NCBI GenBank assembly: GCA_023213395.1
Contig: CM041465.1
Span: forward strand, 119,481,741-119,545,740
Reading direction: 5' to 3'
Length of the DNA: 64,000 bases
DNA from: Cycas panzhihuaensis
Lineage: Eukaryota; Plantae; Cycadophyta
Shown: positions 13,401 through 43,988 of the stretch, one piece after another
Numbering within the stretch: the stretch's first letter is position 1
Layout of the letters: each line of letters opens with the position of its first letter
Position numbers and translations under genes: made by a program
The notes under the pieces: generated by a model
What the model saw: only the letters and a program-made list of their open reading frames with translations
Told to the model about the DNA's origin: nothing
The model's database searches: none

Positions 13401-13793
13401 CATCTTCAACTTTTTGACTTTATAATCACTTATAAAAAGGAAAAAGATAATATTATAGTAGGCACTCTTTCTTGCTTACCATTCCTTGTATCTAATGAGA
13501 CCACTCATTATCTTGAGGATCCTACCCTTCACACCATCTCTACCTCATAACTAATATGGATACAAGAATTGGCCTTAGATAACCAATTCCAACTAGACTT
13601 TTCATAATGGACTAATAAGGTTCATACATAAAAGGATTGGTCCATCTATAACACTCTCTTATTACACCAAAACCACATCTTTCTACATCCTAAATCAACT
13701 TATATTTCTAAGATTTTATTGAAATATTACTCTTCTGCATTAGGTGGTTATTTAAGATTCAATAAGACATATCACAAGACCCATTCAGACTTC
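10500..13793 (+). pseudogene. Chromovirus gag-pol pseudogene, 5' part (gag, PR, RT, RH, start of INT zinc finger)
   Basis: Many stops and frameshifts. Motifs IDGGVSVNF, MSFGLCNAPTT, FDDILIYS, YLGHIISS, IAFESRKL, GGYLRFNKTY..DF. Start is approximate. Confidence 0.8.
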
Positions 13794-16380
13794 TGAAACG
13801 CTCGCTACGGGGCGGTGTCCCTACGTCTAGCAAAAGGATATAAGAATACGCTATGCTAACTAAGTTAGGCAGCGAGGACCTCACCTCACAAGGCGTCCGT
13901 GTGCCGGAGTGCAGATTCAGGACTGCAAGGTGCCTAGTTGCTTTCAGGTAGCCGTGTAAAGCAAGGCCTTCCTACCTTTCAGATGGCCAGGAAGGAGAGA
14001 GAATGCCTTGCGCGTTGCGTCTTCTCAAGGCAATGAAAAGGCAACGAATGAAAGGGAAACTAACTAATGTGTAGGTGAATGCAGGAAAGGGCGCAATGAG
14101 GGCAGCTCAAATACGATGCGAGCAAGCTATCTACGCTATGCTACTCTAGATAAAGCAAGAAATGATGTAAAGAAAATGAATGCACTTTCCCTTTTTCCTT
14201 TATATTCCTTTATAATTTCCTGACTACTCAGGCAAATGCATGAAAGGTAGTAATGTAAAAGGGGATACATGGGAAACAAGGGGAATACCTGGATCCAGCG
14301 CCTAAATGGAGTGCAACTTGTCTCTCTGAGTCCCGCTCCTTTCTTCTCTGTTTGTCGTGCATGCGTTGCTGATCGGCGGTAGTTGCCAGAAGCAATAGAA
14401 GAGGGGTTTACTTACCTCCCCATAAACATGCAAAAGCAAATAAAACAGAAAGAAACAAAAAGCTTGAAACCAAAGAAAGAAATGCACTACTTAGGGAACT
14501 AACCTACAACGGGCTCATCCCACGTATCACTCCACCAATGCACGGTCCTGCAAATGGGTGAGAAGAACACCTTCCTCTCCGAAGAGAGGCCACGAGATAT
14601 ACCAAAATATATATATATATACTGAAATCAAATGGAACTAAGATCTATGCTAAGCATCGAAATATAACTGAATGAAATAACAACATACAAGAAATGCTGT
14701 CACCACCATACACCACGAAGACACTCGAAAGGGAAAGGAGTATAGCCTCGGGATGGCTAACTTACCCATGGGAGACCTCCATGGAACTCAGGAAGGAAAA
14801 CCAGTTAGCAATAAGGTAGTGAAGCAACAAACCGTAACAAGGAAAAGAATAACAGAAAAAAAACTGGGGCTTACGTAGGGCCCAACACCAACAGGTGAGA
14901 CTTCTGGCAATGACATAGTGACGGGTTACTTATGCTAGTCTGAGCACCCTAACTAAGTTCCCTAAATTCCCTTAACCCGTTCCCTAAGAAAGCGCTGATG
15001 GCAAAGGGAAAGAGGACAAGGGACATAACCCTTTGGGAGAAGGACAGCAATGGGGGGTGGAACCCCGCCTACCTCCCTCAAATCCTCGTATGTTACTCCT
15101 TTGCACCAGCTAACTAAGGAAGGGGTGAAAGAGATAGTTTAAGGAAAATAGAGAGGCTTCAAGGAAACAATGGGAGGGTATTACTAATCCAGTGTAACAC
15201 TATGAGGAAAAGCTAGCTAATTAAGATCCCATTCATTAACAAACAAAAGAAATATGAATAAAATGGATTGCAAGTAGAAAATAAGAAGTACCTCATAGGA
15301 AGAAGATCAATCATGAACTTTGCTGCTAGGAGACAGCAGTAATGACCAACATATGAGGACTGATCATGAGTGGTTCTTACAAGAGTGAGAATGAAGAAAA
15401 CTCCTTACAAGCTTGGAGCCTTAGAAGTTGGCTCTTTGGGAAGCTTTTGGGTGAAAATGCCACTTAGATCCTTGAGCACCTGTAAAGAAAGATGGGGCTT
15501 GCTATGGAGAGCTGTAGGGGGTAGCAATGGCCCTGCAAGTCCAGCTGATAGCAATCATTTTCTCCTTTGTCTAGTTGCTGTGTATGTAGATTATCTTTTT
15601 CTGTTTGTTTTCTTGTTGAAAAAATTAGAAATTCTTCCAAGAGATTTAAAAAATGGACAAAAGATCCAAAAAATGGGGAGCAAAATCCCCTTTATCCCCT
15701 TGTTCACAGCAAGTAAACATTGGGGATGTCAGGGTGACTCGAATCAATCAACGCCATGCGGCAGTTCCACAAAAAAATAGAAACTGTCGCGTGGTTCTCT
15801 TTTTTTCTAATTTCAAACAAATATATCATGACAAACTCTACCAGATCGCGAAGAAATGCCGTCATCGCTAAGTTTATAGTGGTATCCGACTGGAAATAAA
15901 AAAGAGAAAAAATAAGCAGAAACATCAGGTTTTGGGGTAAAAACCAAGGTTAAACATAAGTTAGAGCAGCTGGGGGAATGTCCAGGTAATGGGCAGGTAC
16001 CCAAAATAATGCAAAGAGTCCTAACTAAGGATTAAATCAGGCTTAAGAAGGACTGCAACATAAGCAACATGTTGTAACAGGAGTAAACAGAGCTGACGAA
16101 AACATCCCGGGAGACCGTAGAGACAACGTGGGTGGCTGTGCGACATACATGGTGTAGAATTCGCTGAGGAATGCCCCCGCTGTGAGTCGTCATAGGCTGA
16201 TGGTATGCCGTAAGCATATGCATTATGAGCAAGTAGAAAAGCAATGTGTGCAGGCAGGCATATGTCAAGCAACCTACTCTAAATAACCTCAATCAAGCAT
16301 GGGCAAGAAAAGGTAAGAAAATATACCTGAACAAACCTGCGTCGATGCGTCTCGAGTCCATTCCCAGTAGCTGGGAAACA
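13794..16380 (-). repeat. 3' LTR (2587 bp)
   Basis: Direct repeat of 27809-30367 with TG/CA termini. PPT abuts at 16381. Confidence 0.95.
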
Positions 16381-16390
16381 CTACCCCCTT
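16381..16390 (-). promoter_or_regulatory. Polypurine tract
   Basis: Minus strand AAGGGGGTAG immediately before LTR start TGTTTCCC. Confidence 0.85.
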
Positions 16391-16462
16391 GGCAGCAGAG
16401 CCTCACTGCTCAGAAGCATAACATGATGGTGAATGCTGACAATCAAAGATATGAGTAACACA

Positions 16463-16465
<3 letters not shown>

Positions 16466-16500
<35 letters not shown>
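16466..16500. repeat. (TA)n microsatellite between aRH and PPT
   Basis: Visible directly. Confidence 0.95.
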
Positions 16501-16502
<2 letters not shown>

Positions 16503-16769
16503 CAATAAAGAGCAGCACGTGGACCAAGGGCGTAGGTAAGTGTCATGGCGGAACGCGTGGACAAGGGAGACGGAGACAAGGACAACATAGGGGCTGTCTA
16601 CGCGTCGTCTAACATTAACCTGTAAATGAAATAAGCAAGTAAAAGGGGATGCCCCCATTGTCGAAGAGCAACGTGAAGTAGGAGGGCATCCAGTAAATAG
16701 AGCAAATATATCGAACTAACATCAACCAAAGACTGTGCATGGGCCGTGCAAGCCTCGGGGCTGCTATCT

Positions 16770-17181
16770 GAAGAGGGAGGCGATGCTCAAGGATGAGGTG
16801 GACGAGGCTGTTGGCCTCAGCATTGAGGTGCCTAGGGATATGATGAATATCCACTGACGAGAAACAAGCTAGAAGAGACCTGGCAGCAGACATGAGGGTT
16901 CTCAGGTGGGGGCATCGCACTTGGTAAACCTAGGTGAGATGGGACACCACAACTTGAGAATCACAAAGCAACACAATGGATCTGAGATGGAAACATAGAG
17001 CATCGGTAAGGGCTTCAATAACGGCTATGTACTCAACTTCATTATTAGTTGCCTCATGAAGAAAGACCTCAGAATATAAGAAATCATGTCCAGAGGGGCT
17101 GCAAAGAATCCACGCAGTGGCAGAAGGTCCGAGGTTGCTGCGACTTCCACCATTGGCGAAAACGAGAAGGGAAATGCCTGA
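16770..17181 (-). pseudogene. Stand-alone archaeal/bacterial-type ribonuclease HI (aRH) domain
   Basis: One frame: SGISLLVFANGGSRSNLGPSATAWILCSPSG..LHEATNNEVEYIAVIEALTDA..SIVLLCDSQVVVSHLT*VYQVRCPHLRTLMSAARSLLACFSSVDIHHIPRHLNAEANSLV. This matches the RNase HI motifs DGxSRxNPGP, TNNxAEY, DSxLVV and IPRxxNxxADxLA. The first and last catalytic Asp are Asn (GCCGA>GCCAA), and there is one TAG. Confidence 0.9.
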
Positions 17182-17700
17182 ATACTAAGCTCTGGTAGCA
17201 AACTAATAGTAGTGAAAGTAAAAGAAAGACTCGAATGGCAAGGAAAAAAGTGGCCGAGAAGGGTAGGAGGACCTAACAATGAGGTTATCCGAGAACGAGA
17301 GCAAGCAATTCAGCCATTGGCTGAGAGTGGGCAGAGAAAAGATGCCCTGGAGTGCCAAAGGTTACTTTGGGAAGCAAAACATGCCCCCAGACGGGGGAGC
17401 ACTCCCTTTGGAGACCCCAGGGGTGAAAAAGGGCTGCGGAAATGAGGCCAGGGTGGCAAAATAAGCCAAACGAGTATAAACTCAGGCACACACAGGAGTA
17501 GCGCACAAAACGATATAGAAGGGCCCTGGCAAAAGTACGATAATGAGGCGCCACAAATACCCTTACAAGGGAGGGCAAAAAGGGCATCACTAGAGCACAA
17601 TAGGCAATAGGGCCAGAAGGCAAAGGCTATCAGGGCAACGAGACGATCCCAACGATCGTCATGAGCCGTAACGGAAGAAGTGCCCGTCGGGGCCCCCGCC

Positions 17701-17707
17701 TATATAA
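17701..17707 (+). promoter_or_regulatory. TATA box of the antisense PMD gene
   Basis: CCGCC-TATATAA-GG after a GC-rich block, about 28 nt before a TTCATTTT initiator-like site and 71 nt before the ATG at 17772. Confidence 0.65.
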
Positions 17708-17771
17708 GGAAAACGAATGAAAATTGGATTCATTTTCACCGGCTCTCGTATGAAACCAGAGCCTTTTCCTT

Positions 17772-20253
17772 ATGATGCAGAGTGCTACCCAACTTCGGAG
17801 GCATGCAGGAGATGATCCAACCATTGGATCCGAGCGCAGTGAGAGTCATTATGACCAGAGAGATGAGATGGCGATGGTCAGGCCAGATTCAGTGAGTGGA
17901 TCTCACGAAACCTTCCCCATTTCGAAGTTCAAAGTTTATTGCTTTTTAGTTAATTTTAATACATTTTTATGCCCCTTATAGGCAATTGGATGCCTCTCGG
18001 AGTCCAAATTGGACCCAGAAAGAGATGGGGATCTAGGCATTAGAGAGCCCTAGTCCCAGTGGGCCCCACAGGGGTCCACCACAAAAATTTTGGGGATTTT
18101 CTGGGCTGAAACCCTCTTTTTTAGGGGGTTGCCATTCATACCGCAGCCAAGATTGTGGCACCGCGATCTTGGCCGCATGATCGCTATAGGAAAGCGATCA
18201 CCGCGGGACCCACTCCAAATTTAGCGGTATCGCTAAATTTGGAGCCAGACACGTAAAAATAAAAAAAAACTAGAAAATGGGCCACCCTAAAATTAGAAAG
18301 AGAGCTAGGAGCCTAGATGACTGCTAGGAGGCTGACCTTGACTGACTTTTGATGATTGCAGGCAGTTATCGCGGTGGATAACCGCGAGAACGTCGGCATG
18401 CCGATACTGAGTTACTTGGAGATGGCATCCCAAGAGGACAAGGCGACTCTTAAGAGGTGTGGCCTATACAAGGCCCTCAAGACCCCCTAGTTCACGTCAG
18501 ACCAGAGGCTTCTAGTTGACATCGTGTCACACTGGGACAAGAGGAGGCATATATTTCACTTGCCTCAGATAGGTGACGTCACTATCACCCCAAGAGATAT
18601 CAGGCAGATTTTGGGGGTACTAGCGACAGGGAGGCCAGTGAGGCTGGGAGCGCTGCCTAGCACCGAGGTAGCACATAGGGAGGTAGCCCAGTTTTTCACA
18701 GGGACCGACAGGTGGGAGCAGAGGGGAGCTGCCCTCCAGACTATGCTCATGTCCAAGATTCCTCGGGTGAGGAAGTTGATATTAGTATGCATTCTGTTCT
18801 AGATTTCCTGGAAATAGAACTACAGGGAGATCCCCGGAGGTTGGGTGGATGTAGTGCGCTGGTGTGAGGCTGGCGAGAGGATGGATTGGGCTACTCTAGT
18901 TGCGGCGAACCTTGTCGCCTAGCTAGACACCATCCAGAGATCCGACAGAGGAGGGTTCTCTTATAGCACACTATTGCAGTGCTGGTTTTTTGACCATTTT
19001 GCGGTAGTGGCACCAACAGGGGGGCCATTCCCCATAGCAGAGTGGGCCCCGATGGCCCACAGATGGCAAACGTGGCTCCGAGGGACAGAGGATCAGGCGC
19101 ATGTCCATCGGTCAGTCGATGCGACATCATTCAACCTCCTCACTCTGACAGATTATATAGCAGAGCCCTATAGAGCAGAGAGGTAGGGGAGTAATAATGG
19201 AGTGGGCAGAGCAAGATCACCCATCGACGACGATGATGACAATGATAGCGATGGTGATAGCGGTGACGACGGTGATGATGGAGGGGATGGGGCTGGCCCA
19301 TCGCGACCTGTAGGAGAGGCAGGTCTATCACAGTCAGTAGGAGGAGCAGCAGGACTATCCGGGACTGCCGGAGGAGGGGCACGCCCATCAGGAGCTGCCG
19401 AGGTGAGCAGGGTACCAGAGACCGGGGGTCGCAGATTACGGATCGTGAGGAGATCCGGAGAGGCAAGGGTCGAGCCAGTCCCTGTTAGGGGCGAGGTAGA
19501 GGCAGAGGATGTACCTGAGGACGAGGTACCTACAGCTGGCGGAGGGCCAGGAGACGAGGATGTCACCCAAGCAGAGGAGCCGGCGGCCGTGGCAGGTGAG
19601 ACCTAACCGTTTCCTTAGTCGTTTGACATCTAGATAGATGCTTGATTTCCTTTTATTATGGTATGCAGTGAGGATATACACTGACACACGACATGTTACA
19701 TTGACAGGTGTAGCAGAGGTCCAGAGACTAGTGGAGGCCATGGTGAGGGAGATGTTCCCTCAGGTCTACGCAGAGGGGTAATCGCCCATCCAGGCAGAGG
19801 ATGTGCCTAGGTCGGTAAGAGCCCACATGCAGGCATTTGCCCCACTGGTGAGGGTGAGAGACATCTGGGTTGCAGAGACCCAGGAACACATGGCATTCCA
19901 AGGGCAGCCACAGCGAGAGCTCAACGTGGCCAAGGGCGAGTGGGATGAGTCCAGGCCTTAGAGGCTTAGAGTGGACTAGGAGGAGATGCGGGGAACAACA
20001 TCTGTATAGCAGTACTAGAGGAGCGCCTCAAGGCGACAGAGGAGAAGTTTCAGAGTATGGAGGAGGGACTCCAGGGAGAGAGGGATCACATCCAGGTTCA
20101 ATACGACCAGCTAGTGGCGCAGATGGTCTTGAGGTCGAGCAGGAGCCAGACCCACACACATACAATCTACGACCCGAGATGGCCTCGATGAGGGGAGCGA
20201 GGCAGGCCTGGGGAGCTCAAAGGGATGTGGTCCCCAGGAGAGGGATCACATAG
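17772..20253 (+). pseudogene. Three-exon Plant Mobile Domain (PMD / aminotransferase-like, MAIN-like) gene, antisense to gag-pol; exons 17772-17891, 18362-19595, 19669-~20253
   Basis: Exon 2 holds DQRLLVDIVSHWDKRRHIFHLPQIGDVTITPRDIRQILGVLATGRPV and LQCWFFDHF (PMD signature LxxLVERW..THTFHLP.GE.TITL.DV..ILGLP..G.PV; LQ.W..EHF). Intron 1 is GTGAGT...CTGAC...TTGCAG (phase 0) and intron 2 is GTGAGA...ATGCAG (73 bp, phase 1); both join in frame. Exon 2 stays in one frame with only in-frame stops. The 3' end is approximate because of frameshifts. Confidence 0.85.
18143..18244. repeat. Three adjacent CpG-rich inverted repeats in PMD intron 1
   Basis: 18143-18176 (16-bp arms, 13/16 matched), 18178-18200 (TGATCGCT/AGCGATCA, perfect), 18213-18244 (CTCCAAATTTAGCG/CGCTAAATTTGGAG, perfect 14 bp). 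Confidence 0.9.
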
Positions 20254-20418
20254 ACTAGGGGATGGCACCCCAGGATCAGGACAGCAATAAATGAGATGTA
20301 TATATAGTTTTGATGGGAAAGCACAGGCCTCCAGGGGGTCATATGTAGGCTCACATGATTGTACCCCCCCTGCAAGGATCCCGGCTTCCCACATGCACGA
20401 TGTACCATGACATTTTTG

Positions 20419-20475
<57 letters not shown>
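20419..20475. repeat. Compound (AC)n(AT)n microsatellite
   Basis: Visible directly. Confidence 0.95.
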
Positions 20476-20480
<5 letters not shown>

Positions 20481-21000
20481 ATTGGAACCCCATTTTGACA
20501 TGAAATCGTGCATATCATGTATGATAGAGATAACATGTATGATTTACTTTGTAAATGAATATTTTTTGTATGTTGTAAATGTAAATATGTAAATATGTTT
20601 TGTTGTAAATATTTGGTTATAAAATGCATGTGTTTCTTTCCATGTATAGCTATATGTCTAACAGGAGTACACACGTCCACCATAAGCAGAGGTGATCGAG
20701 AGGTGTAAGGTTAGAAATAGAGCGACACGCACGTCCACAGAGGAGCATAGCAGAATATGTGAAGGAAACAACAGGCAGGAGAGGGGAGTGACGATACTCC
20801 ACAGCGTCATCCTAGTAAGAGAATGCCCAAATAGGAGGACAAGGGTTCCCGAGAGGATACGGGAACACAGGAGGAACCAGAAGACAAAGCGAAAATCCAT
20901 CTTAAATTACCATTCTACCCGTGGTTGGGAGGAATGGGAACAATTTAAAATGGTAGTTTAGGCTCGTTTCAGAGCATGGCAGAGAAAAAGAGCAGAAAGA

Positions 21001-24000
21001 TCACGCGTAAAACTTCTTAAGGAATTTTTCATTGACTACTTTCTCAAATTCTAAGCCTTCTAAGGTGGCAATCCTGTATGCACCGTTATCGAGGCTTTCG
21101 AGAATGACGAAGGGGCCTACCCATTTGGGCCCGAATTTGGCCAAGCGATCATAAAGGTACTCCAATTTGAGGATGTGGTCCCCGGGGCACAAAGGATGAG
21201 CACAAAGATGTTTGTCGTGTGTCCTTTGCAAGTGGGCTTTTGAAGCAAGGTTCGCTTGATAAGCCGTTAAGCACCTCTTATCTAGGGCTTCGAGGTCTGG
21301 GAGGCGAGCCTGGCAAATAGACTCCTCGTTAATGAGACCTCAAAGGGAAACTCGAAGAGAGGGGATCTCCACTTCCAGTGGGAGTATCGCCTTGGTTCTG
21401 TAGACTAACGAGAATGGGGTCATTCCAGTAGCCGTGCGGATGGAAGTGCGATAAGCCCAGAGGGTGGAAGGGAGTTGGACATGCCAATCCCTTTGAGATT
21501 GGGCAACGGTTTTTCTTAAAATGCTGACGAGCATTTTGTTGAAGGATTCAACTTGCCCGTTTGCTTGGGGGTAATAAGGGGATGATGTCTTATGCGAGAT
21601 CTTGAATTTCTCACACAATTTGTCCATTTCCTTATTACAGAAGGAAGTTCCATTATCCGTGATTAGGATATCTAGAATCCCGAAACGACAGATAATATGC
21701 TGGTAGACGAAGGTGGCTATCATCTTACTAGGGGTAGTGGACAGGGGGATTGCCTCTACCCATTTAGTGAAGTATTCGGTAGCAGTTAAGATATATTTAT
21801 GTTGTGCGAAAGATGGCGGTGATATAGCCCCAATGAGGTCTAAGCCCCATTGAGAAAAGGGCCATGGAGACACGATAGGGTGCAACGCCTCGGAAGGTAC
21901 GTGAGAGACATTGGCATGCTCCTGGCATCACCGACATCTAAGGGCATAAGCGTGGACGTCCTTGAACAAGGACGACCAGTAATAACCCATGCAGAGGATC
22001 CTTTGGGCCATGGATTGGCCCCCAAAGTGGCCCCCATAAATGCCATGATGGCATTCGTGGAGTATTTGGTCCGCTTCGTCAGGAGTGACGCAACAAAGCA
22101 GGATCCCATCAAAAGATCTCTTGTACAACACTTCATCCACAAGGAAGTGTTGCCTAGTAGTGGCGTAGATATGCGACCTAACCTTGTTACTAGCTTCAGG
22201 GCGACATTCTTACTGAGTCAGATATCGCACAATATCACCATACCACTCGCTGTCGGTGAGTGGGTGGGGAGAAGCATCATGGACGGTCATGATAGACTCG
22301 TCCGGGAAAGAGTCGTCAACAGGAACGCCACTCGCATTAGGAATGGTAGCATCAGCTAACTTCTCTGCTACTATTATTCCCTTCTTTGACTTCCTGTTAA
22401 TGACTTGCAAGTCGAACTCTTGAAGCGGTGACTACCAACGACCGCCTCCCTACCCATCAAGTCCGAACGAGTAAGTAAGTAACGCAAGGGATCAGATTGA
22501 ATGATCACCTTAGTTGTATTACCGAGCAAGTAATGCCTAAACTTCTTGGTCGTATGGACCAAGGAGAGGCATTCCTTTTTGGCATGGGGATAGTTTAATT
22601 TAGTGGCAACGAGAGTGCGGCTGATGAAATAAATAGCCCTCTCAGTTCCTGAATCATCCTCCTGTGCAAGCATTGCGCCCAGGGATTCGTCGGTTGTCAA
22701 GGTGTATAGAATGAAGGGCCTATCAAAACGAGGAGGCGCCAGTGTAGGGGCGGAAACGAGAGCTTTCTTGAGTCCTACGAAGGCCTTTTGGGTCTTGTCT
22801 GACCAAACAAAAGGGGTTTCTTTCTTCAATAGGTTCGTAAAAGGCTTGGCGTTTATGGCAAAATTTGCCAACAAACACCTCAGAAAACCAAGTCTGCCTA
22901 GAAACAACTTAATTTGTCATTGGGTCCTAGGCAGCGGCATGTCAAGGATTGCCTTGACTTTTTCCAGATCGATTTGGATTCCTTGTTGGGACACGAGGAA
23001 ACCCAAGAGTTTGCCTAAAGTGATGGCAAACACGCATTTCAGCAGGTTCAGGCTAACGTGATACTTGCGGCATCTTGTGAAGATGGCATGCAAGTCAGAA
23101 GGATGATGGGCTCTGGTACGTAAAGGCCCATCATATCGTCCATGAAAACCTTTAACGTATTGTTGATGAGGTCGTGAAAGATAAAATATATGGCTCTTTG
23201 ATAAGTAGCCCCTGCATTCTTAAGACCAAAGGGCATTGCCTTGTAGGCAAAGGTACCCCATGACGTAGTGAAGGCCATCTTATGGCGGTCTTCAGGAGAA
23301 ATCTGAATTTGGTTATAGCTGGAGAAGCTATCCATTAAGGATATTACTTCGAATCCAGCCGTACGATTAATTATTTGATCAATGAAGGGAAGAGGAAAGT
23401 TGTCCTTAGGACAAGCATTGTTTATATCGCGAAAATCGACACAAATACAAATGGTCCCATTCTTCTTAGTAACAGGAACGATATTTGATACCCACTTAGG
23501 GTAATCGATGGAAGAAACGAGTCCTGCATCCAGAAGCTTCTCAACCTCCATCTTAATGGCAGCTGAAAGCTTCGGGTGAAGGGGACACTACTTCTGACAT
23601 ACTGGGCGAGCATCAAGAACAGTCATAAGGTTATGTGTGATGATGGAGGGGTCAATGCCCTTCATATCCGAGTAGTCCCATGCGAATACATCATGGAATT
23701 CCTGGAATAGGAGGGAGTATTCCCTCACTTCATCAAGAGTACATTCCGCTCCTACCTTGATGATCTTGTCCAGGGTAAAGACTATGTCCTGAGTTGCCCC
23801 CATGCACATAGCATTCCCCTCCTCGAAATGGAGGGAGGCAAGATTGACCAGAAGAGAGGAAACGGAAGAAGGGATCGGATCAGCTAATGTGGACCCAATC
23901 GCTAAGACCTTCTGGTGGCCAAGCTTATGGTGACCAGGAGGCAAACTGGGCATGGAACCTGTTAAGTGCTCCAACAAAGCCTCATTATCTTCGAAGTAGT

Positions 24001-27000
24001 CCACCCGATGGATGACCTGGCTTCGAATGGACGAGGCGCAGGATAGCGTGGGAGTGATAGGACCAGTATGGCCTGAAAGCTGCCTATCATCCCCAAGGGA
24101 CTCTAAAGGAGAGTCAAGGAGAGGTCCCTTGTAAAAAGTAAGAGGGAAACTCTCAACATCATCACCTATGGGAGGTGATGGGATGGAAGAGCTAGGAACA
24201 CGATGATCAACATGCGCAATGTCATGTGACATGTGAAAATGACCAGGCTCTATAACAAAAGGGATCCTAGGAGGATGCCCCATACTAGTGCGGAGAAACG
24301 AAACTGGGTGAGGATGATCCTCATCCTCGCTATGGGACTCGTCATCGTTAAACATGGTGAGGTAGCCATAGCTCCCAACACCAATGGGGGTGAAACACAT
24401 CAAACCAGGAGAAGAAGATATGGGATCTTCTTTATGGTAAGAGGAATCGGGGATTCCAATGGAGCAAGCCGAGACATGATCAGAAGGGTGTTTGTTTCCC
24501 TTCGTATGGCCATGGCTTGCCTGAGTAGAAGGCCTGACTTGTTTGGCGAGCGATCGCTCACGGGAGACAACTTTCATTTGCCTATTATGGACAAATTTAA
24601 GTTGCCCCCAACGGGTGGAACACACGGCTCCCATTTGGTCAAGCCATAGTTGACCCAGAAGCAAGTTGTAATCAACGTCAACATCGAGGACGACGATGTC
24701 AATAACGATAGTCTTGTCCTCAAGAGTAAGGGGTATTGAGATAGATCCCAAGGGAGTCTTCTCGCTACCGTCATAACCCTGATAATGCCATGGAACAGGT
24801 TCTAAGGTGGAAATGCTAAGTTCTTGCATAACGCGTAAGGGCATGGCATTGACGGAAGAACCGTTGTCTACGACGGTTCTTCGCAATGTGCAATCAGGAG
24901 TATCTATGGTAATGGTAAAAGGGAAGTTCCATTGGCGCTCCCTTCCACTAGACGCAGGAAGATCTCTGGGATTGAAAGAGATGATAGGTTCACAACTTTG
25001 GGTTGTGCCCAAGGCGTGAACGGACATGTCATTCGATCCTAGAGCTTCCAAGAGGAGTGTTCGCTGCTTGGGGCAACTTCTCAAGACATCCATGATGGAC
25101 ATCTCGGCAGCCACAGTGAGAAGCTCTTCGACTACGGAGAAGGGCTTACCCCTCCCTGTGGGTTGGGTAAGGGCTCTCCTAAAGTTGAATCTACCGGGGC
25201 AGACGGGAATGCTCTTGGGAAGCGCGAGAATATCTGGAGGAATGGCTTCCGGAGGAGGATCGAGTTGCAAGGTAGATGCGGAGGCGCCTGTTGCCTCGTT
25301 TGCGACTTGAGACTGGGTCAACGTATAAAGGGGAGTGGTCTCAAGCATTTAGATCACCTTCTTTCCTTTATTATGGGACCGCGAAGGTGATGGAGTATGG
25401 CGGCCAGGGGAGCACGAAGGGGAAGATGGCCTTTGCACACCCTTCCCTCTACCATATGAAGGGTGAGAATCGGGGGATCTATCCTGATTTTGATTGTTCC
25501 TTTACTGAACATCATGACCATGTTCCCCATGTTTGGGGAATGGGTCTCTATGAATGGGTTGATCGAGGTTAGGCCTCGATGCCTGCCTAGGGGACGAATC
25601 ACGTGGTGGGACGTCGTGTGGGTGCTGCACTCGACAATGCGAATCGTCATGGAAACACTCCCTGTGGATGGAACACCACCTTTTCTCAAGGGGAGGATCG
25701 ATCCTCCTTGCTTGAGAAGACTGGATGTTACCCCCTTTGGGGGGCACCGCACGAGAAGCCTATTGAACTGGTTTATGGGAGGTCGGTGATGAAGGAGGTT
25801 GGAGTTTAAGCTCCTTCATAGTGTGCTCAAATGAGCGAATAGTGGAGGTAAGAGGATCTAGGGTCCTCTCAGTCAGATGAGAGGTGGGCCTAGTGGGTTA
25901 CGAAGGTTTGGTTTCCTTCACTCGGGGAGGTGCCTCATGGTGTTGTGAGGGCTTAGGAGGTTTCTTGAGTCCATCTTGGATCTTAATGGCCTCCAACGCC
26001 AAGCACCTCGTAATCGCGGAGTCACATGTGGTTGGCCCCATCTTAAAGACTTCCACATGCACTTCGAGGTGAAGCGCGTTGACGAAGAGATCTCACTTCA
26101 ACTCTTCAGGCAACGTGGCCTTGGTAGAGTAAAGGAGATCATGAAAGTGTCACACAAAGTCACGATTCATTTCGTCGTGACCTTGTTTAAGCGACAGAAG
26201 TGCTTTCATTCCACTTTTGAATGGACGGGCTACATCAAAATAGTTGATGAACTTGTCCACCAATTGCTGGAACGAAGAAATTGAATGAGCAGGGAGATGG
26301 TAAAACCACTTGAGGGCGTCACCCTGCAAGGATCACAGAAATAACTTCATTAGAATATGGTCGTAAGCCCAATAATCAATGCACGCCATAGAGAAACTAC
26401 ATACGTGCTCGGTTGGGTTTTGCGACAAAGTTCCGTTGAATTTGGGAACTTCAGGAGGGTGAGGCGGCAGGTTCGTCCTTAGTGCCTCAACAGATAATGG
26501 CGTCGACCTATAGTCTATAAAAGGACATGTCCTTACATGGGCTAACAGATCGATGACCGGCAAAGGAACAGGAATGGATGGGGGTGGTAAGCCCATCCCT
26601 CCCCGGGGAAATGCCCCTTGTTGGAAGGGGGGTTGCAGGTAAATGCCTTGAAAGGGAGGTATGTTCCCTTGCAAAGACGCGGTAATAGGGGTTGCGCTAG
26701 ATGGTGGAAATGAAGGGTGAGGGACCGGGTTTTTCCCATACGGGCCACCCGTAGGTGGCGCAACTCCGTATGGGTGCAACGGGTCCACCCCATAAGCAGG
26801 AAGATGGTTTCCCCTACCCTGCCCCCAAGGTTGAGACGTGTAACCTGGGGGCACGTAAAGGGAAGGACCACCAGCAGGGTTTTAAATATATGTAGGAGTG
26901 GGTTCTACATAGTTAATGGTAGCAACTCTAGTAGGGCCTCGAGGCCTACTAGAGAACACATGCGCCACGTTCGAAGGTGGCACATTCATTTGACTCGGAA

Positions 27001-27634
27001 ATGACATTCTAACCCTGAGTTGGGGAAAGGACATGCCACGAACAGGTCTCGAAGAAGTAGGTAGCGCAACACTTGCCCTAGGAGCCAGTGTAGACATGGC
27101 ATAGGATGAGTGTGCACATGCAGGAGCATCATTCATTGTATAAGACGCAGGTATGGATGAAGAAGATGCTACATTGCGCAATATTTCTTCAAACCACCTA
27201 GGATGCGGTTGGCGGTGAGTTGTTCGGAAGTACTCACTGAGTGCTTCGACTACGTCGGCAGGAGGGGTATCCTCGTAGCCATACGAAGTCAACGGGATCT
27301 TGAATGTCGAGGATCCCTCAGGACGCTCCTCGTAAGGCTCACCAGTAGGGTGGTGAGTCTCGTGAGGAGATGACTCTTCTGCTGCATGAGCAGAAGGACG
27401 AAAGTCAGCAGGGTGAAACTGGTCATCTGGATAATAGATGGAATTATCGCCCCCCTAGGCAGATTCCGGAACAGATGAGGGGAACTCTTGAGTTCCCAAA
27501 GCAATGGTATGGTAAGCCCAATCGGACGGGTAACCTTCCATTGTCGAATTGGGGTTCGACGACGGAAGGGAACAAGGTGATTGGTCTTCTGACAACGGCG
27601 GCAGACCTCGCAAGCGACGTGAGAAACGTCGCAT
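21001..27634 (-). pseudogene. gag-pol: gag-pol polyprotein (gag, zinc knuckle, PR, RT, RH, INT), disrupted by several stops and frameshifts
   Basis: Starts MRRFSRRLRGLPP (ATG 27634). gag VPKFNGTLSQNPTEHVCSF, knuckle WCSIHRECFHDDSHC (~25680), PR VVDNGSSVNAMP (~24880), RT WVSNIVPVTKKNGTICICVDFRDIN..MPFGLKNAGATYQR..FMDDM, RH FILYT..LGAMLAQ..AIYFISR, INT CHHGIYGGHF..YYW..PWPFSQWGLDLIG..YPQANGQVES..WVGPF. Stop at 21001. Confidence 0.95.
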
Positions 27635-27789
27635 GCAATGCCTTTGCGAGCGTTGTTAGAAGAAAACAAAAAGAAGGAAATGAAGCAAGCACATTGGGGG
27701 TTACCCAACTGAAAACACGGAATAAGAGACTACCTAGAGGCAAGAACACCAACGAAAAGGGGAAGCGAATCTAGCTCCCTTACTGGCAG

Positions 27790-27807
27790 TCCCCAGTATG
27801 GTCGCCA
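27790..27807 (-). promoter_or_regulatory. Primer binding site, tRNA-Arg type
   Basis: Minus strand TGGCGACCATACTGGGGA one base after the LTR end. Resembles the Ogre/Tat Arg PBS TGGCGACTCCACTGGGGA. Confidence 0.8.
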
Positions 27808-27808
27808 G

Positions 27809-30367
27809 TGAAACGCTCGCTACGAGGCAATGTCCCTACATCTAACAAAAGGATATAAGAATACACTATGCTAACTAAGCTAGGCAATGAGGACCTCACC
27901 TCGCAGGCGCCTCGGCGCCAGCATAGATTCAGGATCGCAAGGTGCCCGTTGCTTCTGTGTAGGCAAAGCAAGGCCTTCCTACCTTTCGGATGGCCGAGAA
28001 GGAGAGGGAATGCCTTGCGCGTTGCGTCTTCTCAAGGCAATGAGAAGGCAACGAATGGAAGGGCAACTAACTAATGTGCAGGCGAATGCAGGAAAGGGAG
28101 CAATGAGGGCAGCTCGAATACGACGCGAGCAAGCTATCTATGCTACGCTATGCTAGATAAAGCAAGAAATGATATAAAGAAAATGAATGCACTTTCCCTT
28201 TTTCCTCTATATTCCTTTACAATTTCTTAACTACTCAGGCAAATGCATGAAAGGTAGCAATGTAAAAGGGGATACACAGGAAACAAGGGGAATACCTAGA
28301 TCCAACGCCTGAATAGAGTGCAACTCGTCTTTCTGAGTCCCGCTCCTTTCTTCTCCATTCATCGTGCATGCGTTACCGATCAACGATAGTTGCCGGAAGC
28401 GATAGAAGAGGGGTTTACTTACCTCCCCATAAATATGCAAAAGCAAATAAAACGGAAAGAAACGAAAAGCTTGAAACTAAAGAAAGAAATGCACTACGTA
28501 GGGAACTAACCTGCAACGCACTCGTCCCATGTATCACTCCACCAATGCGCGGTCCTACAAATGGGTGAGAAGAACACCTTCCTCTCGGAAGAGAGGCCAC
28601 GAGATATATCAAAAAATATATATATACTGAAATCAAATGGAACTAAGATCTATGCTAAGCATGGAAATATAACCAAATAAAATAGCAACATATAAGAAAT
28701 ACTCTCACCACCATACACCACGAAGACACTCGAAAGGGAAAGGAGTATAGCCTCGGGATGGCTAACTCACCCACGGGAGACCTCCATGGAACTCGGGAAG
28801 GAAAACTAGTTGGCAACAAGGTAGTGAAGCAACAAACCGTAACAAGGAAAATAATAACAGAAAAAAAACTGGGGCTTACGTAGGGCCCAATACCAACAGG
28901 TGAGACTTCTGGCAATGACATAGTGATGGGTTGCCTATGCTAGTCTGAGCACCCTAACTAAGTTCCCTAAATTCCCTTAACCCGTTCCCTAAGAAAGTGC
29001 TGATGGCAAAGGGAAAGAGGACAAGGGATGGAACCCTTGGAGAGAAGGACAGCAATGGGGGACGGAACCCCGCCTACCTCCCTCAAATCCTCGTATGTTA
29101 CTCCTTTCCACCGGCTAATTAAGGAAGGGGTGAAAGAGATAGTTTAAGGAAAATAGAGAGGCTTTAAGGAAACAACAGGAGGGTATTACTAATCTAGTGT
29201 AACACTATGAGGAAAAGCTAGCTAACTAGGATCCCATTCATTAACAAACAAAAGAAATAGGAATAAAATGGATTTCAAGTAGAAAACAAGAAGTACCTCA
29301 TACGAAGAAGATCAATCATGAACTTTGCTGCTAGGAGACAGTAGCAATGATCAATGTATGAGGACTGATCATGAGTGGTTCTTGCAAGAGTGAGAATGAA
29401 GAAAACTCCTTGCAAGCTTAGAGCCTTGGAAGTTGGCTCTTTGGGAAGCTTTTGGGTGAAAATGCCACTTAAATCCTTGAGCACATGCAAAGAAAGATGG
29501 GGCTTGCTGTGGGCAGCTGTAGGGGGCAGCAATGGCCTTGCAAGTTTAGCTGATAGCAATCCTTTTCTCCTTTGTCCAGTTGTTGTGTATATAGATTGTC
29601 TTTTTTTGTGTGTTTTCTTGTTGAAAAAATTAGAAATTCTTCTAAGAGATTTGAAAAATGGCCAAAAGATCCAAAAAATAGGGAGCAAAATCCTCTTTAT
29701 CCCCCTGTTCACAGCAAGTGAACGTTGGGGATGTCAGGGTGACTCGAATCAATCAATGCCATGCAGCAGTTCTGCAAAAAAGCAGAAACTATCACGTGGT
29801 TCTCTTTTTTTTAAATTTCAAACAGTCATACCACTAAGAATTTACTGCATCAAAGAAATGTCATGCATCGCTAAGTTTACAGTAGTATCCGACTGGAAAT
29901 TAAAAGAGAAAAAATAAGTAGAAACATTAGGTTTTGGGGTAAAAACCAAGGCTAAACATAAGTTAGAGCAGCTGGGGGAATGCCCAGGTACCCAAAATAA
30001 TGCAAAGAGTCCTAACTAAGGATTAAATCAAGCTTAGGAAGGACTGCAACATAAGCAACATGTTGTAATGGGAGCAAACAGGTCTGACGAAAACATCCCG
30101 GGAGACCGTGGAGATAACGTGGGTGGCTGTGCGCCATACGGGGTGTAGCATTCACTGAGGAATGCCCCCGCTGTGAGTCGTCATAGGTTGATGGTGTGCC
30201 GTAAGCACATGCATTATGAGCAAGTAGAAAAGTAATGGCAGTGTGCATATGTCAAGCAACATACTCTAAATAACCTCAATCAAGCATGGGCAAGAAAAGG
30301 TAAGAAAATATACCTGAACAAACCTGCATCGATGTGTCTCGAGTCCATTCCCAGTAGCCGGGAAACA
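27809..30367 (-). repeat. 5' LTR (2559 bp)
   Basis: Direct repeat of 13794-16380 with the PBS adjacent. Candidate TATA (CTATATAC on the minus strand) near 29590. Confidence 0.95.
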
Positions 30368-30372
30368 ACTTC

Positions 30373-31005
30373 TTTTGGCTAGCTATGGAGTCCATCATTC
30401 TCACATTTATCTCTAAATATGATACATGCTAATACAATAAAGCATATACGAATATGCAACCAGATCTTCTATAACCTTTGCATATCTCACAAAGTAAGTG
30501 ATAAGATATTGCCATGGATTTTATCACGAGATTACCATTATCTACCAAGTATGACTCTATTCAAGTGGTTATTGACAGGTTGATAAAATATGCCCACTTT
30601 TTACCTATCTACATAGCCTATAAGGTGCCATACATCGTAGACATTTACCTCCAAACAATATTTCGCTTGCATGGATTTCCATCCACTATTGTATAAGATT
30701 GGGATTCTAAATTTAGTAGCTCATTCTAGCAAGAACTATTTCATACATCTAGATCATCATTTGATATAAGCTCTACATATCATCCATAGATAGATGGCTA
30801 ATCAAAGGTCCTTAACAAAACTTTAGAGACTTACTTATGCTATTTTGCATTTGGCCACTAGTCTAAGTGGACAGTATGCCTAGCCCTAATTGAGTACTAA
30901 TACAACTCCTCACATCATTTAGCCATTATAATGTCTGCATTTTTGGCCCTCTATGGATATCCCCCACCTTCTTATCATACCTTAGCTACCAACCTCTATA
31001 CTACT
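30373..31005 (+). pseudogene. Chromovirus integrase, 3' continuation (truncated)
   Basis: FWLAM..KYDTC, MDFITRLP..YAHFLP..FRLHGFPSTIV, YNSSHH..LYGYPPP, then an abrupt junction to LTR sequence. Confidence 0.85.
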
Positions 31006-31254
31006 ACTAATAGGATTGCTTGGAAAAGACTCTCTCTGTCTATTTAAGGGTCATAGATTATAGAAGATGGTTAACTTGATATTTTCTCTTCTTGTAAGAA
31101 TTATATTATAGTATTCTCTTTTGGTGATCAATTGACACTCTTATGCTTTTTAGTCCCTTTTAGCAATTTATTTATCTTTGTGGGTTATATAAAGTGATTG
31201 TGAATTTTTGTTTTCTACCATTTTGAGGAGAGCTTATTTAGAAAAAACAACCCA
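31006..31254 (+). repeat. Truncated 3' LTR of the chromovirus-type element
   Basis: Collinear with 9039-9287, ends ACCCA followed by TSD CTAGT. Confidence 0.85.
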
Positions 31255-33869
31255 CTAGTAATACCCCATTTGAGGGATGTGTTAAGAGTGGAATAGACAT
31301 TGAAGTAACCACCACATATATTGTCATGGTATTTAGTCAGAGCTACCTACACTTTTAAAGAAGAAAGGCATGCCAATAAGAACCCATCAAAGGAGCACTT
31401 ATAAAAGACCACATCAAGTAGTAGGTACTAGTCCACAACTAGTCTAACTCTCTTACTTTCCTTAGAAGAGGTATGTGGTGGGTAGCTTTGATCATGTAGG
31501 TAAGTCTAGATATCCCTATACTTGTGAGTTGCATTTTCATCTAAGATAGCATCTACCTAAAATATGTGCCTATCTAAGAGTATATCATCTATGATATCAT
31601 CATCTATGCTAGGAAGGGGAGTTGTAGTAAGTTATTCAATAACACCTATGCCTTTCATTAACTTATGATTGATGATTGAAAGTCAAATTCCTAAGAGTAG
31701 TAAGGCCCACTTACCTACTCATCCACTAAGGTTATCTTTGGTGAGAAAGAGGTAAATGTGGTTTAATTGCATAATGATGTACATGGTATTATTGAGTAAA
31801 TAATGTCATAAGTTCTTAGTCATAAAGACTATAGCTAATAACTCCTTTTTAGATATTAAATAATCCACTTCCATAACCACTAATGTGTAGTTAATGAAAT
31901 AGATAGCTTGCTCTTACCCAAATTTATCTTCTTAGCGAAGCATGCCTTTAAGGGATTCCTTAGTAGAAGAGTATACAATATGAAAGGTTTATCAAAGATG
32001 GGTAGAACAAGAATGGTAGTAGAAACCAATGCCTTTTTAAGGTTATAAAATGAATCTCAGATAATTAGGATCCAATTGAAAGAAATCTCCTTTCTAAGAA
32101 GGTTTGTGAGGGGCTTCACATTTAGAGAAAAGTCTAATAATAAAGCTTTAAAGGAACCTAAGATCCCCAAGACATGACATGATCTATCTTTTATTATATG
32201 GTAGCAACATTTTGACTATGGCCTTGACTTTATTAGGGTCTACTTGAATGTCATTTCTTAAAACAATATCTTTGAGCATCTTTTCATAGGCAATGACAAA
32301 CATGCATCTATTAGGGTTAAGGAACAACTAACACTTATAACATATTTAAAAAATGATTCATAGATCATGAATATGATCATTTTAGTATTATAATAGTCCC
32401 AACATATTGTCAAGGTAGATGGTGACTATAATGCCAACCAAGTCATGAAAGATAAAAATCATAGCCTATTAATAGGTAGACCTAACATTCTTTAAGTTGA
32501 AGGGCATAACATTGTGAGAAAATATACCATATATCATAATGAATGCCATTTTGTGAGTGAGATGAGAATTTGAGTATATCCCAAAAAATTGTCTATACGA
32601 GACATCACTTCAAAGCTTATAGTTTTTATAATAAGAATAATGTTTGATACCTATTAAGAATAATCTATAATCTCAATAAAACTAATTTTTATTAACTTTC
32701 CAACTTCTTACTTGATTATTGTGAAATGGCCAGGGTGAATAGCTCTCTACTTTTGTCACTTAGGTTTGACCCCAAGAATACTAGTGATATTATAAACTAT
32801 GATGTTGAGGTGTAAATCCTTCACTTTAATATAGTCCTATGCAAAAGCTATAGAGAATTCTTTGAAAAGTTCCTTATGTTATTGGACCTTAGAGGGTGAG
32901 TAATCAGCTCCCACTTTGATTATTACTTTGGGCTTGTCATTAATTTTGAGGTAAATATCCATGGTTTCTCCACTAGAATGGCATTGCCTTCTTTGAAGTA
33001 AAGGGGTATAGTAGGGATGAAGGAATGCAAAAGTCTTGACTTTCACTTGCTAATGGTGAGTTAGGTTGGATATGTTTAGAAAAGCCAAGTTTGTGATGAT
33101 TAGGTAGGAAGTTAGGAGTTGCTCTTACTAATTGCTTCAAGATGGCCTCATCATTTTCAAAGTGGTCAAGGCCAAGATTGACTCTTAGAACTAGATTCTT
33201 TGAGCAATGAAGACCAAGAAGAGGTAAATTAGATGTGAATAACTACTATGGCATGGTGTTAGGAGCATAAGAAAGGATGTTAACAAGAGTGGATGCCTTA
33301 GGTATAAGATCCACGTTGGTGGGAAAACTCCAATCAACCTATGAAAGAAGATTGAATCGTGCATTATGACTAGGTTGGTAAATAGGATTAAAAGATATGG
33401 TAATAAAAGAGAGGGAATCTTTCTCATTATTGGAGGGAAGACTTCCAACTAGGTGACTTAAAGGAGGATTACCTTATGGGAATATCATGGTGATTATATG
33501 GACCTCTCTCACCTCCTCTTCACCTTCTCTTAGAAGTAGTTTAGTGGTAAACTATTATTTGAACCCTATAAAGTGAAAAGGAGAAGAAGATTCTCCTTCC
33601 TAAAAAATTATGTGAATTAGGGGAGTAGATTATCTAATAGGCTTGTTATTACTCTTAATAATCTTGAGCTTATGATTATGTATAAATTGATCTCATCAAA
33701 AAGTTAAGAGAAAACTATTAACATCTGACTGATCCATGGATGAACTAATAACACATTGAATTCTACATGAAGATGAAGGATAGTAACTTTTGTTGTGATT
33801 GCCTTCCCTACTAGTATGAGTGGGAGAGTGGCCTAACTAATTAGAGTCTTTTGATTTTTATCATAGCCT

Positions 33870-34750
33870 TGACATACCCAATTAATATGCTTATATTCTA
33901 ATATCTCTAAGTATTTTATGAGTTAGAGAGGGGGTATCTTCTTGGTGGACCTATGCAACCTATGTATACATATTAATAACTAACATTAATCTTCACTAAT
34001 ATTTCTCATATATATAGATATTTATGTTCTACTAATTACAAGTAGTTATGTCATAAGTCCTCTCCCCTAAGACATGAAGTCCCTTAAGTGCAAAATATGT
34101 GGATATTATTTAATGAATTATTCTAATCCCCATGCCACTTCCTTAAGTACATAGCTGACTGATTATACTAGATACTTAAAGATGGTCTTATTCTAGAGAT
34201 GACATTATCGATTATTCAAGATGTATTCTAGGGGAGCTATTAGGAGTTATTCTTCATTAAGGGCTAAGAGGGTAGATTGAGGGATAATGGTCTTTCCAAG
34301 GTACTTTTCAAGATATAAGACATGGAATACATTATGGATCTTGGTATCAAGGGGAAGTTTAAGGGTATAGGTAACTTCACTGATGTCCTAGATAACCTTA
34401 TAAAGACCATAGTACTGAGGGTTGATCTTATCATTTTTATTATTATGGAGGGATCATTGTTTGTAGGGTTTGAGATGAAGGAAGATTAAATCACTAATAG
34501 AAAAGGGTCAAATAAAATGGTGGCAAGCAGCAAGTTACTTCATACAATTTCAAGCAGAGGCTAAGTTTTATTTGAGTGTATGTAGGACTTGGTCCATATC
34601 TTATAATTTTTGTTAGATTGTAATAATTCAAAGATTGGTGGCCAATGTATGGTGAGATGGTGGGTGGTAATCATAAAGGGTCATGAAAGGGGACATACAA
34701 ATGGTAGAGTGATGGGATGAATTATACTAATATTCAAGTAAGAAAAGATG
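33870..34750 (-). mobile_element. 3' fragment of a chromodomain-bearing gypsy element (INT C-terminus, chromodomain, PPT, 184-bp LTR at 33870-34053)
   Basis: Minus strand YNSSHHST..SPFMTLYDYHPP, PQYYGLYKVI..YTLKLPLDTKIHNVFHV, then a chromodomain-like YILN.R..KYLV. PPT AGGGGAGAGG. LTR with 7-bp terminal inverted repeats TGACATA...TATGTCA. Confidence 0.75.
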
Positions 34751-43929: not shown

Positions 43930-43988
43930 TAGTTTGTATAAGAGGGGATATGATGGAGGTAGTTTGTATAAGAGGGGATATGATGGAG
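43930..43988 (+). repeat. Perfect 30-bp-period tandem duplication
   Basis: TAGTTTGTATAAGAGGGGATATGATGGAG at 43930 and 43960. Confidence 0.95.

What the first reader, a model, noticed from the sequence alone, without database searches (positions are those of the whole stretch)
17772..20253. Intron-containing antisense PMD gene inside an element that replicates through RNA
Seen: two GT-AG introns (17892-18361 with a CTGAC branch site; 19596-19668) join three exons in frame, with a TATA box upstream and a TGTA-rich, 3'-UTR-like region at ~20510-20660. The ORF track shows only fragments. Established: introns antisense to the genomic RNA are not removed during retrotransposition. Inference: a complete Pol II gene with its own promoter and terminator was kept as cargo, a candidate source or derivative of domesticated MAIN/MAIL-like genes.
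Basis: partly seen in the sequence, partly recalled or inferred. Interest (0 to 1): 0.8.

Follow-up and report, generated by a model that had tools for sequence, protein, structure and literature searches.

The report
Backward spliced anti-silencing gene in retrotransposon
A decayed plant jumping gene carries on its opposite strand a plant-mobile-domain gene with two likely introns, whose protein is predicted to fold like the transposon anti-silencing factor VANC21, so the element likely brought its own shield against host silencing.

Summary
The feature is real, but this copy is dead. A 16.6-kb Ty3/gypsy element (LTRs 91% alike, 5-bp target duplication) carries, antisense behind pol, a plant mobile domain (Pfam E 1e-15) with a TATA box, two GT-AG introns and a TGTA-rich tail. 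The joined model has 12 internal stops and a frameshift, and no RNA evidence was found. A stand-alone extra RNase H lies beyond the PMD gene, head-to-head with its promoter. This fits gymnosperm TatIII (post-integrase Tat), for which an antisense PMD ORF is already published, so the cargo is lineage-typical rather than a recent capture. Not found in my searches: (1) the introns; (2) intron 1 lies in the same phase and within 0-3 codons of an intron inferred in host MAIL2-type genes; (3) the predicted fold matches the VANC21-DNA structure (Z 12.4, next 2.5); (4) the divergent RNase H/PMD layout. Likely role: a DNA-binding anti-silencing accessory factor (untested). It is not specially close to MAIN/MAIL. 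This scan earlier noted intron-bearing antisense genes in fungal and animal LTR elements, but not this sequence. New variant of a known kind.

The parts
13794..16380 (-). 3' LTR (2587 nt, TG...CA)
   Evidence: 90.8% identical to the other LTR; ends and 5-bp target duplication at 13789-13793 and 30368-30372
16381..16390 (-). polypurine tract
   Evidence: purine run next to the 3' LTR
16780..17250 (-). stand-alone additional (archaeal-type) RNase H, decayed; the frame may begin further up, near 17380
   Evidence: RVT_3 E 9.2e-19, RNase_H E 1.2e-7; best solved match 4e19 RNase H1, E 3.2e-17; 3 stops in 163 codons
17400..17732 (+). spacer and core promoter of the antisense gene: GGGCC-type motifs, TATA at 17701, likely start near 17732; lies head-to-head with the RNase H ORF
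   Evidence: TATA; 5 GGGCC motifs in 321 nt; start site inferred from recalled TATA spacing
17772..17891 (+). exon 1 (40 codons, no stop; coding status likely, not shown)
   Evidence: similarity to the host upstream exon is weak (135 of 5000 shuffles reach it against MAIL2-like rows, 1053 of 5000 against a broader set)
17892..18361 (+). intron 1, phase 0, weak donor, strong acceptor; holds three adjacent hairpins at about 18140-18245
   Evidence: hairpins z -5.6, 0 of 200 shuffles fold as well; acceptor column matches a host intron inferred from read-through fragments
18362..19595 (+). exon 2: whole PMD (about residues 1-272) plus an acidic, glycine-rich linker; 5 stops in this copy
   Evidence: PF10536 E 1.2e-15; model pLDDT 82; VANC21 match Z 12.4
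19596..19668 (+). intron 2, 73 nt, phase 1, AT-rich
19669..20290 (+). exon 3: helical region, frameshift near 19995-20000, heptad-patterned (coiled-coil-like) stretch 19994-20140; stops at 20189 and 20288 in that frame
   Evidence: hydrophobic share at a/d positions 0.57 against 0.22; no homologue found
20300..20700 (+). AT-rich, TGTA-rich 3' region (likely poly(A) signal zone), with (AC)n(AT)n at 20419-20475
21001..25348 (-). pol: protease, RT, degenerate native RNase H, integrase; decayed
25349..27454 (-). gag region (named by position and a recalled motif; no Pfam hit on the pieces scanned)
27790..27808 (-). primer binding site, tRNA-Arg-like (assignment recalled)
27809..30367 (-). 5' LTR

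Best explanation
This is a decayed copy of a Ty3/gypsy element, likely of the gymnosperm TatIII lineage, that carries on its opposite strand a plant-mobile-domain gene, likely spliced from its own promoter, whose product is predicted to fold like VANC21 and would likely act as a DNA-binding anti-silencing factor for the family. Steps: (1) shown: LTRs, pol, antisense PMD and a separate extra RNase H, in the order pol - [PMD gene, reversed] - RNase H - 3' LTR; (2) established: introns antisense to the genomic RNA are not seen by the spliceosome on that RNA, so they are copied at each round; (3) inferred: an internal promoter at about 17400-17730 makes a + strand mRNA, two introns are removed, and active members make a protein of roughly 600-680 residues (short leader, PMD, acidic linker, coiled coil); (4) predicted: the PMD grips DNA as VANC21 does and keeps family copies from being silenced, in trans (about 0.45); (5) speculative: the same spacer fires the other way and expresses the stand-alone RNase H (about 0.3). 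This copy makes nothing intact.
For: PMD hit. Three of four splice sites rank in the top 3 of several hundred candidates. Amino-acid conservation with relatives begins at acceptor 1, 12 codons before the first Met, while the sequence before it is unrelated and ends in an acceptor-like read-through (P0016). Relatives at 65-77% identity read through all four PMD-core stop positions that they cover. In 3 of 3 DNA runs no variant reaches 15% at 19593-19600 or 19667-19688, and loose ends recur inside intron 2 at 19637 and 19648. All 30 bins of 16300-21400 are covered in X1, X2 and X20, and 20 runs with 13 organism labels hold parts of the gene. Model pLDDT 82, pTM 0.81; best match among 48,161 chains is VANC21 bound to DNA, Z 12.4, rmsd 3.7, 243 aligned, next Z 2.5. 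Literature: antisense PMD ORF in gymnosperm lineage III (PMC4408406); extra RNase H as a separate ORF in conifers, Cycas and Ginkgo (PMC10508981); VANC binds motifs in non-coding parts of its own element (PMC5735166); PMD-C resembles VANC (bioRxiv 10.1101/2024.09.27.615353).
Against: No spliced read or full-length spliced protein was found. Donor 1 ranks only 91 of 230, and a diverged copy is under 80% alike across 17845-17964, which includes it. Splice-site invariance is a weak test: 30 of 221 places vary, so four invariant letters arise by chance at 0.56 and ten at 0.23; intron against exon variability p 0.21. Only 7 of 15 exon-3 variants are synonymous, and exon 3 has no homologue. No VANC-style motif array stands out. 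Foldseek found no match at E 0.001; the tool warns that helical models can reach Z near 13 by arrangement alone; the model leaned on 52 other PMD rows, so the fold is the family's. A shared fold shows no function.
Confidence: 0.65

Rival explanations
1. The gene is a real antisense ORF but unspliced: one exon from the Met at 18398 to the stop at 19604, and the introns are chance GT-AG pairs.
For: That Met is shared by 4 of 4 relatives that cover it; donor 1 is weak; no spliced form seen; exon 3 has no homologue.
Against: Conservation starts 12 codons before the Met, exactly at the best-scoring acceptor, with stops just upstream in this copy; the folded domain starts there; intron 2 has typical size, composition and sites; the 3' signal zone lies about 900 nt past the unspliced stop; a coiled coil behind the PMD is published for related lineages (PMC4408406).
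Confidence: 0.12
2. The gene is spliced and kept by selection, but the protein serves another nuclear job (chromatin tethering, nuclear import, control of the element's own transcription), or the antisense RNA itself dampens the element through double-stranded RNA.
For: MAIN and MAIL1 promote silencing of some elements (PMC5418596); both roles are proposed for antisense ORFs (PMC7264820); no target-motif array found.
Against: The only clear solved-structure match is a transposon anti-silencing protein on DNA; host PMD-C proteins counteract Polycomb silencing at motif-bearing genes (bioRxiv 10.1101/2024.09.27.615353).
Confidence: 0.3
3. A host MAIN/MAIL-type gene or a Mutator piece was picked up recently and rides along without function.
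For: The intron 1 position is close to that of host PMD-C genes; Mutator elements carry PMD-C (PMC5418596).
Against: Only 17-23% identity to MAIL2-like rows; separate from them in the quick tree; the second host intron (after the LLQ motif, 9 of 9 fragments) is absent; relatives span 52-79% identity; the arrangement is published as lineage-wide (PMC4408406); no transposase hit among the ORFs scanned.
Confidence: 0.05

Closest known systems
TatIII / Tat lineage III / structure 3 'post-integrase' Tat (clusters H, I) of gymnosperms (PMC4408406, PMC6317226, PMC10508981, PMC13468544)
   Same: Protease in pol, degenerate native RNase H, extra RNase H after integrase as its own ORF, antisense PMD ORF in the 3' part, 5-bp target duplication, size within 12.7-17.3 kb.
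   Different: The passages I read give no introns, promoter or terminator for the PMD ORF and do not place it between pol and the extra RNase H; the 2015 text puts the RNase H at the end of Pol. Figures were not visible to me.
Antisense extra ORFs of plant Ty3/gypsy elements: maize Grande gene23, RIRE2, Retand (PMC7264820, PMC11963269)
   Same: Antisense gene between pol and 3' LTR with an internal promoter, kept across a family.
   Different: Other domains (Transposase_28, SMC-like); 'intron' occurs 0 times in PMC11963269, and PMC7264820 asks for spliced antisense transcripts to be looked for.
Host PMD-C proteins MAIN, MAIL1, MAIL2 (PMC5418596, PMC7156037, bioRxiv 10.1101/2024.09.27.615353)
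   Same: PF10536 domain (profile match 99.9%); a phase-0 intron at or within 3 codons of the same place in front of the domain.
   Different: About 20% identity; element-borne; lacks the host intron after the LLQ motif; has an acidic linker and a coiled-coil-like tail.
VANC21 anti-silencing protein of VANDAL21 Mutator-like transposons (PMC5735166; PDB 9LNK)
   Same: Predicted fold (Z 12.4, 243 residues aligned); encoded by a mobile element as an accessory, intron-bearing gene.
   Different: 10% identity; no tandem motif arrays found in this element; binding and demethylation untested; here on a retrotransposon.

Membership tests
Ty3/gypsy LTR retrotransposon | Two LTRs TG...CA, target duplication, PBS and PPT | tested here: met
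Ty3/gypsy LTR retrotransposon | Domain order protease-RT-RNase H-integrase | tested here: met
   (protease hit weak, E 0.027)
TatIII (post-integrase Tat) | Extra archaeal-type RNase H downstream of integrase | tested here: met
TatIII (post-integrase Tat) | Native RNase H with degraded catalytic core | tested here: met
   read by eye against the recalled catalytic pattern; part of it could be decay of this copy
TatIII (post-integrase Tat) | 5-bp target duplication and size 12.7-17.3 kb | tested here: met
   5 bp, 16,574 nt; ranges from the supplement row of PMC6317226
TatIII (post-integrase Tat) | PBS matching tRNA-Arg | tested here: inconclusive
   PBS seen; the tRNA assignment is recalled, no host tRNA was compared
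TatIII (post-integrase Tat) | RT phylogeny inside Tat H/I | not tested
   no labelled reference set at hand
TatIII (post-integrase Tat) | Gymnosperm host | tested here: inconclusive
   organism names are coded; the best named PMD hits are from Cryptomeria and Ginkgo
Plant mobile domain PF10536 | Score above the Pfam cut-off | tested here: met
   58 bits against 34.9
PMD-C (MAIN/MAIL clade) | Groups with MAIN/MAIL sequences | tested here: not met
   quick tree, 43 rows: outside the MAIL2-like clade (support 99); its own wider group is weak (85, long branches)
VANC-type anti-silencing system | VANC/DUF1985-like fold | tested here: met
   (predicted model); not seen by Foldseek
VANC-type anti-silencing system | Dense arrays of a short target motif in the element's non-coding DNA | tested here: inconclusive
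   no clear array in one old copy; the best 9-mer occurs 4 times, 2 of 60 null sets reach that
VANC-type anti-silencing system | Sequence-specific binding and loss of silencing marks | not testable with these tools
   needs bench work
Spliced Pol II gene | Junction-spanning transcripts | tested here: inconclusive
   no RNA holder listed; no intron-skipping joint among those shown

The most novel reading that the evidence does not exclude
Gymnosperm Tat retrotransposons carry a two-gene accessory cassette on one divergent promoter: one way a spliced VANC-like PMD anti-silencing factor, the other way the stand-alone RNase H whose expression has been unexplained. The antisense position has preserved an intron shared with host MAIN/MAIL genes, so PMD moved between host and retroelement as an intact, intron-bearing gene, and VANC, MAIN/MAIL and retrotransposon PMDs are one ancient family of anti-silencing proteins.
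Probability: 0.2. Interest if true: 0.8.

Novelty: new variant of a known kind. Interest (0 to 1): 0.55.

Why it matters
Three open questions become testable. (1) The function of retrotransposon PMD ORFs is called enigmatic (PMC4408406); the VANC21-like fold predicts a sequence-specific anti-silencing factor in an LTR retrotransposon. (2) Whether host PMD genes came from Gypsy elements or the reverse is 'fully open' (PMC5418596); a shared intron would show that the gene crossed with its intron rather than as a retrocopy, and intron positions give a character independent of the saturated protein tree, though they do not give direction. (3) How a separate extra RNase H ORF is expressed is unexplained (PMC10508981); the head-to-head layout offers a concrete promoter to test. 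It also warns that ORF-only surveys undercount such genes (antisense 3' ORFs were scored in only 18% of 39 TatIII elements).

Tried and rejected
No whole genome is held, so no full-length sister copies could be aligned. No RNA holder listed. Run X20 is only guessed to be RNA, and one of its contigs runs from exon 1 into intron 1 unspliced, so it gives no verdict on expression. A search for longer relatives found 0 of 2604 candidates (weak evidence by the tool's own note). Viral contigs: 0 of 8 pattern matches confirmed. Metagenome contigs: 1 of 83 passed, L001, a 16-residue chance match with no DNA similarity; rejected. The first structure model (11 rows) had pLDDT 40 and was not used. Foldseek against the PDB: no match at E 0.001. 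Rfam: 5 matches, all far below gathering scores. The ungapped register test did not single out the shared intron column: shift 0 was a local peak (-9.1), but shifts +2, +3 and -6 scored higher; some anchors were set by eye. Codon-position tallies on the rows (40 of 1411 shown, mostly letters private to this copy) say nothing on selection. A pol-RNase H splice: no strong donor before the pol stop among the top 22, acceptors near the RNase H start rank 12, 14 and 22 of 208; not supported, not excluded. Intron 1 is not a copy of LTR sequence. The protein atlas gave no result for exon 3. The careful tree did not finish; only the quick tree was read. Steinbauerova et al. 2011 is not held and might describe introns in extra ORFs. 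Supplement file 1 of PMC4408406 could not be searched, and figures and the bioRxiv supplement were not visible; these may show the layout.

Full report
The element. The finding lies inside a 16,574-nt LTR retrotransposon at 13794-30367. The LTRs (13794-16380, 27809-30367) are 90.8% identical, begin TG, end CA and are flanked by the same 5 bases. Their K2P distance is 0.093: about 21 million years at a recalled conifer rate, 3.6 at a recalled grass rate. On the - strand lie a primer site, a gag region (named by position and a recalled motif), then protease (weak hit), RT, RNase H and integrase; pol ends at 21001. All frames carry stops. No whole genome is held.

Checking the observation. In an approximate splice-site ranking over 16381-21400, acceptor 18361 is 1 of 502, acceptor 19668 is 3 of 502, donor 19596 is 3 of 230 and donor 17892 is 91 of 230 (matrix recalled). 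TATATAAG at 17701 is the only TATAWAWR match that is not a pure TA run; TGTA is 9 against 1.6 expected at 20510-20660. Exon 2 scores 58 bits on PF10536. But the joined model has 12 internal stops in 646 codons and a frameshift near 19995-20000. Relatives read through the four PMD-core stop positions that they cover, so these are decay of this copy.

Are the introns real? For intron 1, conservation with relatives starts at the acceptor, 12 codons before the first Met. P0016 (52% identical) has unrelated residues before that point, ending in LQ as a TGCAG-type acceptor would read (inferred from protein, DNA not seen). Against: the donor is weak, and one diverged contig is under 80% alike over 17845-17964. 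For intron 2, the complete variant table (32 rows, 3 DNA runs) has no row at 19593-19600 or 19667-19688, a C/T variant at the -3 acceptor position, and loose ends inside the intron in all 3 runs. This is consistent but weak: 30 of 221 places vary, so the chance of four invariant letters is 0.56; 13 of 73 intron places vary against 17 of 148 exon places (p 0.21); 7 of 15 exon-3 variants are synonymous. No spliced joint was seen and no RNA holder was listed, which is no evidence either way. I put splicing of at least one intron at about 0.85, of both as drawn at about 0.7.

An extra RNase H lies on the - strand at about 17250-16780 (RVT_3 E 9e-19; closest solved structures are RNase HI proteins), 3.7 kb past the pol stop and beyond the PMD gene, head-to-head with its promoter about 450 nt away. 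Runs X1, X2 and X20 cover all 30 bins of 16300-21400, and pieces overlap from 17221 into intron 1 (24 pieces shown of over 219,000, none spanning the whole), so the layout is likely family-wide. Twenty runs under 13 organism labels hold parts of the gene. Intron 1 holds three adjacent hairpins (z -5.6) in a block that diverged contigs keep; their role is unknown.

What it is. PMC4408406 (passages, section 6, part of the supplement) describes gymnosperm Tat lineage III with an antisense 3' ORF containing PMD, and PMD plus coiled coil in lineages IV and V. PMC6317226 (passages and one supplement row) gives TatIII: extra RNase H after integrase, 5-bp duplication, tRNA-Arg primer, 12.7-17.3 kb. 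PMC10508981 (parts 1-2 of 3) and PMC13468544 (passages) report the RNase H as a separate ORF in conifers, Cycas and Ginkgo and ask how it can work from there. So the cargo is a known, lineage-typical accessory gene.

Relation to MAIN/MAIL. Of 56 representatives found, the nearest are fragments at 52-79% identity; the best named hits are Cryptomeria and Ginkgo proteins. In a quick tree of 43 rows the gene groups loosely (85, long branches) with such rows and apart from the MAIL2-like clade. A search with a MAIL2-like N-terminal region gave 16 hits: 9 of 16 are contig fragments whose unrelated N-termini all end in Q just before the ERGALRC motif and which all turn to V after the LLQ motif, the pattern of read-through into two phase-0 introns; the other 7 have the joined form. 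Profile alignment puts the first residue of exon 2 in the column of that E, and a Cryptomeria PMD (P0015) shares letters with both sides in that register. An ungapped test was equivocal (shifts +2, +3 and -6 scored above 0). So intron 1 is in the same phase and within 0-3 codons of the host intron; identity of position is likely, not shown. The second host intron is absent from the element. This fits PMD crossing between host and element as an intron-bearing gene, but gives no direction; PMC5418596 (passages) leaves that direction open.

How it likely works. A 53-row model of exon 2 residues 1-275 has pLDDT 82. Against 48,161 solved chains the one clear match is VANC21 bound to its target DNA (9LNK; Z 12.4, rmsd 3.7, 243 aligned; next Z 2.5). 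Foldseek missed it, and helical models can score high by arrangement. VANC21 binds short motifs in non-coding parts of its own transposon and strips methylation (PMC5735166, abstract and passages). bioRxiv 10.1101/2024.09.27.615353 (passages) notes the PMD-C/VANC likeness and proposes an anti-silencing role for transposon PMD-C; here the likeness extends to a retrotransposon PMD. My committed reading: active family members transcribe the gene from the internal promoter, splice it, and use the protein in trans to keep their copies unsilenced; the antisense position keeps the introns through reverse transcription (established principle, recalled). No target array was found in this old copy, so this step stays near 0.45. 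The head-to-head spacer may also express the RNase H (near 0.3).

Novelty. Antisense PMD ORFs and internal antisense promoters are known (PMC4408406; PMC7264820, parts 1-2 of 3; PMC11963269 and PMC9289625, passages; PMC7156037, passages). Searches (listings only, apart from the papers named) turned up no report of introns in such a gene, of the shared intron position, or of the RNase H/PMD divergent layout; Steinbauerova et al. 2011, figures and some supplements could not be seen. Earlier notes of this scan describe intron-bearing antisense genes in fungal and animal LTR elements (unchecked) but nothing like this sequence. Verdict: new variant of a known kind, interest 0.55.

Noticed in passing
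window 18140-18245: Three adjacent hairpins inside intron 1 (z -5.6; CpG observed/expected 1.29 against about 0.6 in the rest of the element); diverged copies keep the blocks on either side. Could be a packaging or export signal on the genomic RNA, or a protein-binding palindrome.
   Followed up: partly
proteins P0061/P0010 (Cryptomeria, XP_057852931.2) and P0058/P0007: Gymnosperm-type PMDs fused to other parts: P0061 is a NAC (NAM) domain plus PMD plus a charged helical tail; P0058 shares its first ~100 residues with short proteins P0059/P0060 and then switches to a PMD. Possibly element PMD exons spliced onto host genes.
   Followed up: partly
window 49900-54700 (-): A decayed plant L1-type LINE: DUF4283, endonuclease and RT hits.
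   Followed up: partly
window 16600-16640 (-): The strongest acceptor (16620) and donor (16619) scores of the - strand lie just behind the RNase H ORF; the LTRs also show many splice-like sites on the - strand by eye.
   Followed up: no
window 20894-20976: Many family contigs 'go back' 83 bases here in 3 of 4 runs: a tandem duplication polymorphism between pol and the antisense gene's 3' end.
   Followed up: no
non-coding parts of window 13794-27808: The 9-mer CTAACTAAG occurs 4 times in 5003 nt; 2 of 60 null sets reach that count. A marginal lead for a target motif.
   Followed up: partly
window 31000-48000: Flanking DNA is extremely CpG-poor (observed/expected 0.07 against 0.63 in the element), as in an old, heavily methylated genome.
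   Followed up: no
window 9039-9287/31006-31254, 41259-41973, 47001-47453/60349-60791: Other dispersed or tandem repeats at 83-85% identity; 41307-41588 has a faint RNase H-like match (E 0.006).
   Followed up: no
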